Below, piece after piece: positions 34,907 through 37,525 of a stretch of DNA of 64,000 nucleotides. The stretch comes from Candidatus Methylomirabilota bacterium. GTDB taxonomy: Bacteria > Methylomirabilota > Methylomirabilia > Rokubacteriales > CSP1-6. A model generated the notes under the pieces. The model was not told the origin of the DNA, did not search any database, and worked only from the letters and a program-made list of their open reading frames with translations. The position numbers and the translations under genes are program-made. How positions within the stretch are numbered: position 1 is the first letter of the stretch; each line of letters starts with the position of its first letter. The stretch covers positions 70,714 through 134,713 of the forward strand of contig DATBIM010000102.1 in the NCBI GenBank assembly GCA_036556905.1, given 5' to 3'.

Positions 34907-35392
34907 TCAAGGTCGCGAACCGCCCGCGTGCTGGATGGCCTCGAGGACCTCGGCCGGATGGGCGGCCGCGTCCCGGACACGCGGCCAGTGCTTGCGGACG
35001 ATGCCATCGGGGCCGATCCAGACCGTGGACCGGATCACGCCTTTGGTCTTCTTGCCGTACAGCACCTTGTCGCCGTAGGCGCCCCACGCTTGCATGACCC
35101 TTCGCTCGGGGTCGGTCAGGAGGGGAAAGGGCAGCTTGTACTTCGCCGCGAACTTCACGTGCGACGCCGGCGAGTCGGGGGAGACGCCGAGCACGACGAC
35201 GCCCGCCCGCTGCAAGTCCGTGTGCAGGTCGCGGAAGCCGCAGGCCTCCTTGGTGCAGCCGGGCGTGTCGTCCCGGGGATAGAAGTACACGACGACGTCC
35301 CGGCCTTTGAAATCGTCCAGGGACACGGGCTTGCCGGTCCCGTCGCTGAGGGTGAAGCTCGGCGCTTTGCGGCCTTCCGTGATCGCGGGCAT
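34907..35392 (-). CDS. bcp: thioredoxin-dependent peroxiredoxin Bcp (PrxQ family)
   Basis: Start at MPAITEGRKAPSF; 'VYFYPRDDTPGCTKEAC' peroxidatic/resolving Cys motif. Confidence 0.75.
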   Translation of the reverse strand: MPAITEGRKAPSFTLSDGTGKPVSLDDFKGRDVVVYFYPRDDTPGCTKEACGFRDLHTDLQRAGVVVLGVSPDSPASHVKFAAKYKLPFPLLTDPERRVMQAWGAYGDKVLYGKKTKGVIRSTVWIGPDGIVRKHWPRVRDAAAHPAEVLEAIQHAGGSRP

Positions 35393-35408
35393 GGCTGGCC
35401 GTCCCGGC

Positions 35409-35912
35409 TCAGAGCTTCTGCAGCATCGTCTCCGCGCCGCTGACCTCGAACTTGCCCGGCTGCTCCACGTTGAGGGCCTTGACAACCCCGTCGTCCACGA
35501 GCATCGAGTAGCGCTGCGAGCGCACGCCCATGCCGCGCGCGGTGAGGTCCATCTCCAGGCCCAGCGCCTTCGTGTAGGTGGCGCTGCCGTCGGCCATCAT
35601 CCGGACCTTGCCGCCGCACTTCTGGTCCTTGCCCCAGGCCCCCATCACGAAGGCGTCGTTCACCGCGATGCACCAGACCTCGTCGACGCCCTTGGCCTTG
35701 AGCTTGTCGAAGTTCTGCACGTAGCTGGGCACGTGCTTGGCCGAGCACGTGGGCGTGAAGGCCCCGGGCACGGCGAAGATGGCAATCCGCTTGCCCTTGG
35801 CCTGCTCGCTCACCGTGAAGTTGTTGGGGCCGATGGTGCAGCCCGGCCGCTCCGTGTCGATCAGCTCGGTCAGCGTTCCGTCGGGGAGTCGGTCACCTAC
35901 CTTGATCGCCAT
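35409..35912 (-). CDS. peroxiredoxin, Prx5/type II family
   Basis: 'FAVPGAFTPTCSAKHVPSY' active site; 167 aa. Confidence 0.75.
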   Translation of the reverse strand: MAIKVGDRLPDGTLTELIDTERPGCTIGPNNFTVSEQAKGKRIAIFAVPGAFTPTCSAKHVPSYVQNFDKLKAKGVDEVWCIAVNDAFVMGAWGKDQKCGGKVRMMADGSATYTKALGLEMDLTARGMGVRSQRYSMLVDDGVVKALNVEQPGKFEVSGAETMLQKL

Positions 35913-36000
35913 CAGATCCTCCTAGGGGGCGGTGGTGGTGGCCGCGAGTATACAGGAAGCCGGGTGTCATCGCAGCCGGACCCAGCGGGGAGGTGGCGCC

Positions 36001-36029
36001 TTGACTTACAAAACTGCTATCGATACCAT
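36001..36029 (+). promoter_or_regulatory. sigma70-like promoter TTGACT-17-TACCAT upstream of vapB (near-leaderless transcript)
   Basis: TTGACTtacaaaactgctatcgaTACCAT; local AT-rich dip in a 68% GC background; ATG 13 nt downstream of -10; contains ATCGAT palindrome. Confidence 0.4.
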
Positions 36030-36041
36030 CTCGGTAAGCCA

Positions 36042-36251
36042 ATGGAGTCGGTGACCCTATCGACCAAGTTCCAACTGGTCGTGCCGCGGGGCGCGCGCGA
36101 GCGTCTCCGCCTCCGGCCGGGGATGCGGATCACCGTTCTCGACAAGGGAGGCGTCATCTTTCTCGTACCGGAACGCCCCCTGCGCGCGTATCGCGGTATC
36201 GCCCGGGGCGTGAGCGTCAAGGGCCTGCGCGAGAAGAAGGACCGGTTCTGA
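36042..36251 (+). CDS. AbrB/MazE/SpoVT-type antitoxin (VapB-like)
   Basis: 69 aa; swapped-hairpin motif 'KFQLVVPRGARERLRLRPGMRITV...GGVIFLVP'. Confidence 0.65.
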   Translation: MESVTLSTKFQLVVPRGARERLRLRPGMRITVLDKGGVIFLVPERPLRAYRGIARGVSVKGLREKKDRF

Positions 36252-36616
36252 TCCTCGTCGATTCCAGCGGCTGGATCGAGTATCTGGCCAACCGGCCTCG
36301 GGCAGACCGCTTCGCGACGTACATCGAGGGGCGCGACCCGCTGCTCGTCTCCGTGATCGCGATCTATGAGGTGTACAAAGTGATCCGTCGGGAGTTGAGC
36401 GAGGAGCGGGCGGTGGAAGCCGTCTCGGCGCTCCGCCGGGCGACCATCGCGCCGGTGGACGAGCCTCTGGCGCTCGAGGCCGCCGACCTGTCCCTTGCCC
36501 ACGGCCTGGCCATGGCCGACTCGCTCGTGTATGCGACCGCCCGCCGGTTCTCGGCGACCCTCGTCACCGGCGACACCGACTTCACGGGACTCCCCGATAC
36601 GATCGTGGTCCGCTGA
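36251..36616 (+). pseudogene. PIN-domain toxin (VapC-like) disrupted by a -1 frameshift and lacking a canonical start
   Basis: N-terminal 'ILVDSSGWIEYLANRPR' (catalytic Asp) is in one frame; 'ADRFATYIEGRDPLLVSVIAIYEV...TGDTDF' is in the -1 frame; junction cctcgg|cag is consistent with loss of one G from a GGG run; no ATG/GTG/TTG upstream of ILVD. Confidence 0.55.
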
Positions 36617-36661
36617 CGGAGTACGCGCGGCGCGCCGGTCCGTTGGTTCGGCCGATCGCTG

Positions 36662-37525
36662 ATGGACACCGCGCGCACCTTCGTGACCCCCGATGGCGTG
36701 ACGCTGGCCTACCGCCTGTGGCGGCCGGGGTCGCCGCGCCGCACCGTCGTCCTGGTGCACGGGCTGGCCAGCAACCACACCCGTTGGGCCGAGTTTGTGG
36801 CGACGACACGGCTTCGCGAGTCGTGGGATCTCCTCCGCCCCGACCTGCGCGGCTTCGGAGCCTCGCTCGATCGAGGCCGGGTGGGGCTGGACGAGTGGTG
36901 CCGCGATCTGCGGGCGCTCCTGGTCACCGAGGCGGCACCACCGGCCGTGCTCGTCGGGCACTGCCTGGGGGCCAACGTCGTGTTGCACTTCGCGGCCGGC
37001 TCCCCGACGGCGACCCGGAGCCTGGTGCTGATCGAGCCGATGTTTCGCCAGGCCCTCACCGGCGCCCTGCGCCTGGCCGCGCGGCTTCGCCTGGCTGGAG
37101 CCACGCTGGCGGCCCTGGCGCGCGGCCTCAACCGGCTGGGCATTCACCGCCGGCGCCTGCCCACGCTCGATCTCGAGCAACTCGATCGCGAGGCCCGGGC
37201 GGCCGTGGCCGTCGCCGGCCCCGAGGCCTTTCCCGAGGCGCGCTTCGGCTCGGCGCTGGAGGATCTCAAGGTGACGCCGACGGCGGTGTACCTGGCCGGC
37301 TTGCAGGCGGTGACGAGTCCGCTGCCCGACCTTCGTGCGATCCCCGTGCCGGCCCTGGCGCTGCTCTCGCGCGGCGGCCGCTTCGGCGATCCCGACCTGA
37401 CGGCCCGGTTGCTGGCCGCGCTTCCCCGGGGCGAGGTCGAGATGCTCGAAGCGCGCCACTGGATCCCCACCGAGAGCCCGACGGACATGCGCCGGGCGAT
37501 CGAGGAATGGTGCGAGCGTGCTTGA
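36662..37525 (+). CDS. alpha/beta hydrolase
   Basis: 'VVLVHGLASNHTRW' and nucleophile elbow 'VGHCLGANVVL'. Confidence 0.65.
   Translation: MDTARTFVTPDGVTLAYRLWRPGSPRRTVVLVHGLASNHTRWAEFVATTRLRESWDLLRPDLRGFGASLDRGRVGLDEWCRDLRALLVTEAAPPAVLVGHCLGANVVLHFAAGSPTATRSLVLIEPMFRQALTGALRLAARLRLAGATLAALARGLNRLGIHRRRLPTLDLEQLDREARAAVAVAGPEAFPEARFGSALEDLKVTPTAVYLAGLQAVTSPLPDLRAIPVPALALLSRGGRFGDPDLTARLLAALPRGEVEMLEARHWIPTESPTDMRRAIEEWCERA

What the first reader, a model, noticed from the sequence alone, without database searches (positions are those of the whole stretch)
36001..36616. vapBC-like toxin-antitoxin locus with a consensus-like promoter and an inactivated PIN toxin
A local AT-rich dip holds TTGACT-17-TACCAT immediately upstream of the AbrB/MazE-type antitoxin. 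The -10 hexamer lies 13 nt before the ATG, so the mRNA is nearly leaderless. The PIN toxin's N-terminal catalytic strand (ILVDSSGWIEYLANRPR) and the rest of the domain (ADRFATYIEG...TGDTDF) lie in different frames. The junction cctcgg|cag fits loss of one G from a GGG run, and no canonical start precedes ILVD.

So either the toxin has been inactivated, leaving an orphan antitoxin/regulator, or this is a sequencing indel in a G-run. A third possibility is that translation of the toxin requires a -1/+1 recoding event.
Basis: seen in the sequence. Interest (0 to 1): 0.5.

Follow-up and report, generated by a model that had tools for sequence, protein, structure and literature searches.

The report
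Intact vapBC toxin-antitoxin, CTG-started toxin
This is an ordinary, intact VapBC toxin-antitoxin module, not a broken one: the supposed frameshift is a misreading, and the toxin gene begins at a rare CTG start codon that overlaps the antitoxin's stop codon, an arrangement shared by many relatives.

Summary
The promoter (TTGACT-17-TACCAT, 36001-36029), the AbrB-type antitoxin (36042-36251) and the PIN motifs are all real. The claimed frame split is not. The sequence reads cct cgg gca gac, with GGG at 36300-36302. ILVDSSGWIEYLANRPR and ADRFATYIEG...TGDTDF lie in one open frame, 36248-36616 (122 codons, Pfam PIN 78 bits, confident VapC-like model).

Orthologues explain why. The toxin starts at CTG 36248, which overlaps the antitoxin stop as CTGA.

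- Six independent metagenome assemblies carry the identical junction.
- All 87 close orthologous loci whose DNA I fetched have CTGA.
- Their 68 distinct toxin genes are intact and under purifying selection (dN/dS 0.12; 0.14 for the N-terminal 33 codons).
- GenBank already annotates six such orthologues from the CTG.
- Sister lineages use TTGA, GTGA and, rarely, ATGA.

The best reading is a working module whose toxin is made at a low level, coupled to antitoxin translation. The promoter and a conserved dyad, CTTAC-N9-ATCGAT-N9-GTAAG, travel with the module. This is a new member of a known kind, and the start codon is its one unusual feature.

The parts
36001..36006 (+). -35 hexamer TTGACT
   Evidence: TTGACT is present in 59 of 67 distinct orthologous upstream regions, and the spacer is 17 nt in 65 of 67.
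36024..36029 (+). -10 hexamer TACCAT (TAnnAT in orthologues; TAGCAT is commonest)
   Evidence: The hexamer ends 12 nt before the vapB ATG in 60 of 67 orthologues.
36005..36038 (.). Candidate operator: dyad CTTAC(36005-36009)-N9-ATCGAT(36019-36024)-N9-GTAAG(36034-36038). It overlaps the -35, the -10 and the predicted transcription start.
   Evidence: Imperfect 42-bp palindrome 36001-36042. The three elements are conserved in about 69 distinct orthologous loci, while the sequence upstream of the -35 is unrelated between loci. They are also present in the TTG/GTG-start relatives. Protein binding was not tested.
36042..36251 (+). vapB antitoxin, 69 aa, AbrB/SpoVT-type DNA-binding N-terminus; ATG start with no Shine-Dalgarno sequence
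   Evidence: 65 distinct orthologues give dN/dS 0.137. The identical protein occurs on contigs from at least 6 independent metagenomes.
36236..36241 (+). Shine-Dalgarno-like GAAGGA, 6 nt upstream of the CTG, inside the vapB codons for E-K-K-D
   Evidence: Read. gagaagaagga is conserved in the CTG, TTG, GTG and ATG relatives alike. It cannot be separated from the coding constraint on VapB (...REKKDR).
36248..36251 (+). CTGA junction: vapC start codon CTG (36248-36250) overlapping the vapB stop TGA (36249-36251)
   Evidence: CTG is found in 87 of 87 close orthologous loci fetched as DNA. The orthologous position is TTG, GTG or ATG in other relatives.
36248..36616 (+). vapC PIN-domain toxin, 122 codons plus TGA, in a single continuous frame
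   Evidence: translation. PF01850 78.2 bits, profile positions 1-115 of 120; selection. AF2 pLDDT 92.4; the top structural matches are all VapC toxins.
36300..36302 (+).
   Evidence: Codons CGG GCA = R18 A19 of VapC. The same bases appear in L001-L006 (100% identity).

Best explanation
An intact, autoregulated type II VapBC toxin-antitoxin cassette.

Transcription starts from a sigma-70-type promoter embedded in a conserved dyad, CTTAC-N9-ATCGAT-N9-GTAAG. I infer that VapB or the VapBC complex binds this dyad to repress its own promoter. The transcript has a leader of only about 4-7 nt and no Shine-Dalgarno sequence, so vapB is translated in a leaderless-like way from its ATG (inferred).

vapC is translated from the near-cognate codon CTG at 36248. 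This codon sits in a 4-nt overlap (CTGA) with the vapB stop and 6 nt downstream of a GAAGGA Shine-Dalgarno-like motif. Initiation there is expected to be weak. It probably depends largely on ribosomes that have just finished vapB (termination-reinitiation). That would keep toxin synthesis well below antitoxin synthesis.

Shown here: ORF continuity, the PIN fold and acidic residues, conservation of CTGA, purifying selection, and conservation of the promoter and dyad. Inferred: use of CTG as the initiation codon, its weakness in this host, the coupling mechanism, operator binding and RNase toxicity.
For: - Single frame.
- PIN domain: 78 bits over profile positions 1-115 of 120.
- AF2 model from the CTG: pLDDT 92.4, with strand beta-1 formed by residues 2-4. 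Best PDB matches are VapC toxins: 7BY3_B TM 0.83, Mtb VapCs, FitB, Shigella VapC.
- Acidic residues in 68 distinct orthologues: D5 68/68, E41 68/68, D91 67/68, D109 66/68. The window copy keeps all of them.
- The junction is identical in 6 independent assemblies.
- CTG sits at the orthologous codon in 87 of 87 close loci.
- The 68 distinct intact genes have mean pairwise dS about 0.99. dN/dS is 0.115 overall and 0.140 for codons 2-34, which no canonical start could express.
- The C of the CTG is the third base of VapB's last codon. That residue varies (CTC 40, CAC 21, TTC 3, GTC 1) while the base does not. It is the only invariant third position of 69 in vapB in that sample.
- Codon 2 varies (ATC/ATT/ACC/ACG/ATA), so it is not the start.
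- Relatives have TTGA, GTGA or ATGA at the same place, so this position is the family's start.
- Six GenBank proteins equal the translation of CTG loci with M at the CTG.
- The promoter and dyad are conserved while the flanks are not.
- Literature: CUG initiates at about 1-2% (0.02-3%) of AUG in E. coli (bioRxiv 10.1101/063800). A conserved GTGA overlap and weak GTG start of vapC limit toxin in a haloarchaeal VapBC (PMC13488343). Toxin-antitoxin operons are mostly leaderless in M. tuberculosis (PMC3898074).
Against: - There is no direct evidence of translation: no proteomics, Ribo-seq or mapped transcription start.
- CTG is not universal in the family. Among the top 120 protein clusters, about 52 have canonical starts (TTG at least 21, GTG at least 6, ATG 2). 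A rough tree suggests several switches. Selection for CTG specifically is therefore moderate, not absolute.
- The 87/87 DNA sample was seeded with 8-residue peptides from the window protein, so it over-represents the window's sub-clade.
- The Shine-Dalgarno-like motif is confounded with the VapB coding sequence.
- The window copy differs from the consensus at four well-conserved positions: V36, A38 (E in 64 of 67 others), E49 and S102. Full activity is therefore not guaranteed.
- The score against the NCBIfam VapC equivalog model is below its cut-off (34.5 against 80).
Confidence: 0.8

Rival explanations
1. One reading: a 1-nt deletion in a G run, or a sequencing indel, splits the PIN gene into two frames. 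This would inactivate the toxin and leave an orphan antitoxin/regulator.
For: None in the sequence. It rests on reading cctcgggcag as cctcggcag.
Against: One search shows GGG at 36300-36302. One search gives one uninterrupted 122-codon frame. One search matches the PIN profile from end to end in that frame. Six independent assemblies have the same sequence.
Confidence: 0.01
2. Start-codon loss: an ancestral ATG/GTG/TTG mutated to CTG and vapC is no longer translated. It would be a silent pseudogene beside a still-useful VapB regulator.
For: CTG is a very poor start in E. coli. Gene callers truncate the gene to 87 aa in all six near-identical contigs. Some relatives are visibly decayed, with truncated ORFs: L031, L038, L107, L113-L115, L117.
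Against: 68 distinct CTG-bearing genes remain intact at dS of about 1 with dN/dS 0.115, including the N-terminal 33 codons (0.140). The catalytic residues are invariant or nearly so. An untranslated ORF would not be preserved this way. The CTG itself is preserved even though synonymous changes in vapB would alter it.
Confidence: 0.05
3. Programmed -1 ribosomal frameshifting near the end of vapB produces a VapB-VapC fusion. The toxin frame is the -1 frame and is open for 70 codons upstream.
For: In the window the toxin frame is open back to the TAA at 36035 with no canonical start. Five orthologues carry the dnaX-type heptamer A_AAA_AAG in the vapB frame.
Against: Only 7 of 65 distinct modules have any X_XXY_YYZ heptamer in the last 30 vapB codons, and the window has none. 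L056 and L066 have a TGA in the toxin frame 5 codons upstream of the CTG, yet their toxins are intact. No structured stimulator was found: z-score -0.65 and no covariation. Relatives place ATG/GTG/TTG exactly at this codon.
Confidence: 0.03
4. Translation starts at the first canonical in-frame codon, GTG 36353. This would give an 87-aa N-terminally truncated PIN fragment lacking D5, as gene callers predict.
For: The gene callers chose this start in L001-L006.
Against: That codon is Val only in a minority of orthologues (Ala in 57 of 67 others). Codons 2-34 are under purifying selection. They also form strand beta-1 and helix alpha-1 of the fold, including the invariant D5.
Confidence: 0.03

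Closest known systems
VapBC type II toxin-antitoxin systems with AbrB/SpoVT-type VapB (solved examples: K. pneumoniae VapBC 7BY3, M. tuberculosis VapBCs, N. gonorrhoeae FitAB 2H1C/2BSQ, Shigella VapBC 3TND)
   Same: - PIN toxin with the acidic quartet.
- Small upstream antitoxin with a DNA-binding N-terminus.
[quoted passage not shown]
- Inverted-repeat operator over the promoter.
- Predicted fold matches at TM 0.66-0.83.
   Different: - Sequence identity to any solved VapC is only 15-25%.
- The toxin start codon is CTG rather than ATG/GTG.
- The RNA target is unknown.
- FitA is a ribbon-helix-helix protein (my own knowledge), not AbrB-type.
Natrinema gari NgVapBC1 (PMC13488343, 2026): vapBC with a conserved GTGA overlap and differential start-codon use
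   Same: - ATG for the antitoxin and a weaker non-ATG codon for the toxin.
- A conserved -4 nt stop/start overlap.
- Experiments there show that the weak toxin start and the overlap limit toxin release.
   Different: - That system is archaeal and uses the canonical weak start GTG.
- Here the codon is the near-cognate CTG, expected to be 1-2 orders of magnitude weaker.
- Nothing has been tested experimentally here.
Leaderless toxin-antitoxin operons of M. tuberculosis (PMC3898074)
   Same: The toxin-antitoxin operon has no 5' UTR Shine-Dalgarno sequence, and the promoter lies directly against the antitoxin start codon.
   Different: Here the -10 hexamer ends 12 nt before the ATG, so a leader of 4-7 nt is predicted rather than a true +1 AUG. 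The transcription start has not been mapped.
Near-cognate (non-AUG/GUG/UUG) initiation in bacteria: CUG/AUU/AUC/AUA reporters in E. coli (bioRxiv 10.1101/063800); infC AUU (my own knowledge)
   Same: A near-cognate codon placed correctly behind a Shine-Dalgarno-like motif would give low-level initiation with fMet-tRNA.
   Different: Here CTG is conserved across a deep natural clade and sits in a stop/start overlap. No autoregulatory logic like that of infC/IF3 is evident.

Membership tests
VapBC type II toxin-antitoxin | Toxin is a PIN-domain protein | tested here: met
   PF01850 78.2 bits (cut-off 23.6), covering profile positions 1-115 of 120. AF2 pLDDT 92.4. All top Foldseek PDB hits are VapC/PIN toxins.
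VapBC type II toxin-antitoxin | Conserved acidic active-site residues (3-4 Asp/Glu) | tested here: met
   D5, E41, D91, D109 (and D111) are present in the window copy. They are invariant or nearly so in 68 orthologues. D109 and the AMAD region align with the FitB motifs. Catalysis itself was not tested.
VapBC type II toxin-antitoxin | Small antitoxin gene immediately upstream with a DNA-binding domain | tested here: met
   69-aa ORF. TIGR01439 AbrB-family domain 33.8 bits, above its 28.3 cut-off. Pfam PF04014 scores only 18.4, below 24.7. The pairing is conserved in about 65 orthologous modules.
VapBC type II toxin-antitoxin | Co-directional bicistronic arrangement with a short overlap | tested here: met
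   4-nt CTGA overlap. The NTGA overlap is conserved across the family.
VapBC type II toxin-antitoxin | Palindromic operator at the promoter for autoregulation | tested here: inconclusive
   The conserved dyad CTTAC-N9-ATCGAT-N9-GTAAG overlaps the -35 and -10. Binding and repression cannot be tested with these tools.
VapBC type II toxin-antitoxin | Toxin is growth-inhibitory (RNase) and is neutralised by the cognate antitoxin | not testable with these tools
   Needs expression and toxicity assays.
NCBIfam NF047959 TA_toxin_VapC (equivalog model) | Score above the curated cut-off | tested here: not met
   34.5 bits against a cut-off of 80. It is a VapC-type PIN toxin by domain and fold, but not an equivalog of that particular model.
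Translationally coupled vapBC with a weak toxin start (as NgVapBC1) | -4 nt stop/start overlap, ATG on the antitoxin, weaker codon on the toxin | tested here: met
   ATG 36042; CTG 36248 within CTGA.
Translationally coupled vapBC with a weak toxin start (as NgVapBC1) | Toxin translation depends on antitoxin translation, and the start codon sets the toxin level | not testable with these tools
   Needs reporter fusions, start-codon swaps and premature stops in vapB.
Programmed -1 ribosomal frameshift genes | Conserved slippery heptamer X_XXY_YYZ with a downstream stimulator | tested here: not met
   Heptamers occur in 7 of 65 modules, and the window has none. L056 and L066 have a stop 5 codons upstream in the toxin frame. 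No significant structure was found.
Leaderless mRNA | Transcription start at or within a few nt of the start codon; no Shine-Dalgarno sequence | tested here: inconclusive
   The -10 hexamer ends 12 nt before the ATG in 60 of 67 loci, with no Shine-Dalgarno motif in between. This predicts a leader of 4-7 nt. The transcription start has not been mapped.

The most novel reading that the evidence does not exclude
The CTG start may make VapC synthesis strictly dependent on ribosomes that have just terminated on vapB. De novo 30S initiation at CUG is rejected by the normal fidelity checks, so a toxin molecule could be made only after an antitoxin molecule from the same mRNA. That would hard-wire a toxin:antitoxin ceiling.

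The family would then be a natural allelic series (CTGA > TTGA > GTGA > ATGA in abundance, the inverse of initiation strength) for toxin dosage and for start-codon stringency during termination-reinitiation.

A further, more speculative link: if this VapC cleaves initiator tRNA like the enteric VapCs, which were reported to favour initiation at non-canonical codons (cited in bioRxiv 10.1101/2025.06.29.662172), a CTG start would create positive feedback on toxin synthesis.
Probability: 0.25. Interest if true: 0.55.

Novelty: new member of a known kind. Interest (0 to 1): 0.3.

Why it matters
For annotation, this is a clear case where a toxin gene looks broken or truncated. Standard gene callers give 87 aa here, and 110, 113, 119 or artificially extended products in relatives. 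The cause is only that its real start is CTG, so counts of 'orphan antitoxins' and 'degraded PIN toxins' in metagenomes are likely inflated by such cases.

For biology, it extends the recently tested idea that a weak toxin start codon plus a -4 overlap sets the toxin:antitoxin ratio to the weakest NTG codon. It also offers a natural CTG/TTG/GTG/ATG series in one compact cassette of about 620 bp, which could be used to test start-codon stringency during termination-reinitiation.

It does not reveal a new kind of system.

Tried and rejected
- **Frameshift or indel at 36297-36305.** Rejected on the sequence itself.
- **RNA hairpin over the CUG/UGA** (UGAUCC..GUCG-loop-CGGC.GGAUCG, about 36249-36278), as a coupling device. 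RNAalifold predicts it. All its pairs are invariant or change on one side only, within conserved codons, so there is no covariation. The window sequence folds no better than shuffles (z -0.65). Not supported.
- **-1 programmed frameshift fusion.** No conserved slippery site, and stops lie close upstream in L056 and L066.
- **Start at Ile codon 2 or at internal GTG 36353.** Neither codon is conserved.
- **CTG starts as a genome-wide habit.** Other overlapping junctions in the window are ATGA or GTGA. The other CTGA junctions have a canonical start a few codons downstream.
- **Unusual initiator tRNA nearby.** The window has no tRNA genes.
- **Shared synteny.** The peroxiredoxin and hydrolase flanks are found only in the near-identical contigs L001-L006. 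The other orthologous modules sit in other contexts.
- **PDB sequence search for the antitoxin.** Nothing meaningful.
- **Literature searches for a CTG/CUG start in VapC or other toxin-antitoxin toxins.** No report found in the searchable library. Reviews mention non-canonical starts only for type I toxins.
- **My first impression that CTG is universal in the clade.** This had to be corrected. The DNA sample (87/87) was seeded with peptides of the window protein, and look-ups of other family proteins showed TTGA, GTGA and ATGA.

Full report
**1. What the sequence shows**

The region 35990-36079 is a local GC dip: 0.50-0.52 against 0.62-0.80 in the neighbourhood. It contains TTGACT (36001-36006), a 17-nt spacer and TACCAT (36024-36029). 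This is the only sigma-70-like site in 35400-37000, where dinucleotide shuffles give 0.1.

An ATG at 36042 opens a 69-codon ORF ending at TGA 36249-36251: MESVTLSTKFQLVVPRGARERL...LREKKDRF. It matches the AbrB-family domain model TIGR01439 above its cut-off (33.8 against 28.3 bits). It matches Pfam MazE_antitoxin/SpoVT-AbrB below its cut-off (18.4 against 24.7).

**2. The claimed frame split does not exist**

Translating 36152-36616 in one frame gives ...EEGPVLILVDSSGWIEYLANRPRADRFATYIEGRDPLLVSVIAIYEVYKV...LVTGDTDFTGLPDTIVVR* with no interruption. The bases are cct cgg gca gac, with three Gs at 36300-36302.

This frame matches Pfam PIN (PF01850) at 78.2 bits over profile positions 1-115 of 120. 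An AlphaFold2 model of the 122 residues starting at 36248 is confident (pLDDT 92.4, pTM 0.85), and residues 2-4 form strand beta-1. Its best matches among solved structures are all VapC toxins: K. pneumoniae 7BY3_B at TM 0.83, several M. tuberculosis VapCs, FitB and Shigella VapC.

**3. The real oddity is the start codon**

No ATG, GTG or TTG lies in this frame between the TAA at 36035 and the GTG at 36353. Gene callers therefore give an 87-aa fragment on all six near-identical metagenome contigs.

The codon just before ILVD is CTG (36248-36250), overlapping the antitoxin stop as CTGA. The junction is identical in six independently assembled JGI metagenomes, so it is not a sequencing error.

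**4. Orthologues**

The family belongs mostly to Rokubacteria/Methylomirabilota metagenome-assembled genomes. Some members are binned as Myxococcota, Desulfobacterota, Acidobacteriota and others. I fetched 112 related loci as DNA from the genome and metagenome collections.

- *CTG in the DNA sample.* Every locus whose PIN is at least 62% identical to the window's, and whose first residue lies on the contig, has CTG at the orthologous codon. That is 87 of 87, counting the window and its six duplicates. In nearly all of them a 122-codon ORF follows.
- *Selection.* The 68 distinct intact genes differ by a mean pairwise dS of about 0.99, yet dN/dS is 0.115. It is 0.140 for codons 2-34, the part no canonical start could express.
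- *Active-site residues.* D5 and E41 are invariant, D91 is present in 67 of 68 and D109 in 66 of 68. The window copy has all of them.
- *The C of the CTG.* It is the third base of VapB's last codon. That residue varies (CTC Leu 40, CAC His 21, TTC Phe 3, GTC Val 1), but the base does not. It is the only invariant third position of 69 in vapB in this sample. Single changes that are synonymous for VapB would create TTG, GTG or ATG.
- *Codon 2* varies (ATC/ATT/ACC/ACG/ATA), so it is not the start.
- *GenBank annotation.* Six GenBank proteins are identical to the translations of CTG loci, with M in place of the CTG codon. Public annotation therefore already starts these genes at the CTG.

**5. A necessary correction**

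The DNA sample was seeded with 8-residue peptides from the window protein, so it over-represents its sub-clade. In the protein database many family members at 67-80% identity were called as 122 aa by callers that accept only canonical starts.

I looked up ten family proteins as DNA; nine of them were such 122-aa calls.

- Five have TTGA (L119, L126, L128, L129, L130).
- Three have GTGA (L122, L125, L127).
- One has ATGA (L124).
- The tenth, a 119-aa call (L123), has CTGA with a GTG at codon 4 that the caller chose.

Counting the top 120 protein clusters gives the following.

| Start state | Clusters |
|---|---|
| No canonical start at position 1 (truncated or upstream-extended calls, or NCBI CTG calls) | about 57 |
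| Canonical, total | about 52 |
| of these, TTG | at least 21 |
| of these, GTG | at least 6 |
| of these, ATG | 2 |
| of these, canonical but type undetermined | 23 |
| Undetermined (start not resolved at all) | 11 |

On a rough NJ tree, parsimony suggests about nine switches and a CTG root. The largest clade without any canonical start has 75 leaves and contains the window copy. More distant relatives at 53% identity or less use GTGA, TTGA or ATG.

So NTGA is the family's junction and all four N occur. CTG is the commonest state and is stable over deep divergence in the window's clade. ATG is rare. This order is the inverse of initiation strength measured in E. coli: AUG > GUG, UUG at 10-100%, CUG at about 1-2%, range 0.02-3% (bioRxiv 10.1101/063800).

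**6. Mechanism**

The CTG lies 6 nt downstream of GAAGGA (36236-36241), a Shine-Dalgarno-like motif conserved in all relatives. The motif also encodes VapB's EKKD, so the two constraints cannot be separated.

A -4 overlap is the commonest configuration for termination-reinitiation coupling (PMC10666635). In a haloarchaeal VapBC, a conserved GTGA overlap and the weak GTG start of vapC were shown experimentally to limit toxin (PMC13488343).

I therefore infer that VapC is initiated at CUG at a low rate, largely by ribosomes terminating on vapB. This would keep toxin below antitoxin.

Alternatives were tested.

- *-1 frameshift fusion.* This is unlikely. Only 7 of 65 modules have a slippery heptamer, and the window has none. 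L056 and L066 have a stop 5 codons upstream of the CTG in the toxin frame, with no near-cognate codon between.
- *Hairpin over the junction.* A predicted hairpin shows no covariation and is no more stable than shuffles.
- *Genome-wide habit.* Other overlapping gene junctions in the window are ATGA or GTGA, so CTG use is not general in this genome.

**7. Promoter and operator**

In 69 distinct orthologous upstream regions, the sequence upstream of the -35 is unrelated between loci. The module itself is conserved as TTGACTTAC-N8-9-gATCGATAgcAT-N4-5-GTAAGACg-ATG.

- TTGACT is present in 59 of 67.
- The spacer is 17 nt in 65 of 67.
- The -10 hexamer ends 12 nt before the ATG in 60 of 67.

The bases conserved beyond what a promoter needs form a dyad. 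In the window this is CTTAC (36005-36009), N9, ATCGAT (36019-36024), N9, GTAAG (36034-36038), part of a 42-bp imperfect palindrome. It is the obvious candidate for the VapB/VapBC operator.

With the -10 hexamer 12 nt from the ATG and no Shine-Dalgarno sequence, the leader should be only about 4-7 nt. It also parallels the leaderless toxin-antitoxin operons of M. tuberculosis, where 32 of 37 are leaderless (PMC3898074).

The peroxiredoxin and hydrolase neighbours are shared only by the near-identical contigs. The cassette of about 620 bp therefore sits in different contexts in different genomes.

**8. Verdict**

This is an intact VapBC module, a new member of a well-known kind.

- The frame split, and with it the inactivation, indel and recoding readings, are wrong.
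- The one feature of interest is a CTG start codon in a CTGA overlap, conserved across the window's clade. I found no discussion of this in the searchable literature, although GenBank annotation already uses it.
- The window copy has four substitutions at otherwise conserved, non-catalytic positions (V36, A38, E49, S102). Their effect is unknown.

Noticed in passing
L053, L071, L076, L078, L090 (about 10 nt upstream of the CTGA junction): Five orthologous modules read GAA AAA AAG for VapB's E-K-K. This places the dnaX-type -1 slippery heptamer A_AAA_AAG in the vapB frame just before the toxin frame opens. It is not conserved in the clade (most read GAG AAG AAG) and is probably a by-product of codon choice. 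Those variants could still make some VapB-VapC fusion.
   Followed up: partly
L123, and the protein clusters called as 119 aa (P0009, P0018-20, P0032-35, P0045, P0056, P0060, P0066, P0070, P0072, P0082, P0086, P0106): A subgroup has GTG instead of GTC at codon 4 (V of ILVD). L123 still has CTGA at position 1. This may be a secondary or compensating start giving M-DSSGW..., or just a synonymous change that misleads gene callers.
   Followed up: partly
L067:1501-1866: A CTG-started, intact 122-codon vapC whose upstream sequence shows no vapB-like coding or the gagaagaagga motif. Possibilities are a different partner, a rearrangement or a chimeric assembly.
   Followed up: no
L031, L038, L107, L113, L114, L115, L117: Relatives with truncated or interrupted vapC or vapB ORFs, which look like genuinely decayed copies. 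They show what real inactivation looks like in this family, in contrast to the window copy.
   Followed up: no
window 36353-36394 and 36551-36553 (VapC residues 36, 38, 49, 102): The window copy (identical in L001-L006) departs from the consensus of at least 85% at V36 (Ala), A38 (Glu in 64 of 67 others), E49 (Asp in 67 of 67) and S102 (Gly). All the core acidic residues are kept. The effect on activity is unknown.
   Followed up: partly
window 34907-35912, minus strand: Two peroxiredoxin genes lie in tandem and diverge from vapB: a Prx5-like AhpC/TSA gene at 35409-35912 and a Bcp-like Redoxin gene just downstream of it. Cytochrome oxidase subunit genes (COX2, COX1) lie further on, according to the Pfam marks on the identical contig L001.
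   Followed up: no
window 36038-36352, toxin frame: The frame that encodes VapC stays open through the whole of vapB (70 codons back to the TAA at 36035). It holds no ATG/GTG/TTG for 105 codons in all, up to the GTG at 36353. The 70-codon open stretch recurs in 40 of the orthologous loci. This is probably a high-GC effect plus the conserved TAA in GGTAAG, but it explains the long artificial N-terminal extensions in some database entries (P0006, P0011, P0092).
   Followed up: partly
L126:1-100 and L130:900-969: In L126 a second PIN-domain gene ends just upstream of the module, suggesting tandem toxin-antitoxin loci. In L130 a Y1 (IS200/IS605-type) transposase gene lies just downstream. Both fit a mobile or island-like context for some family members.
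   Followed up: no
window 36617-36661: No intrinsic terminator is predicted after vapC. The alpha/beta-hydrolase gene starts 45 nt downstream at 36662, so read-through transcription from the vapBC promoter into the downstream genes is possible.
   Followed up: no
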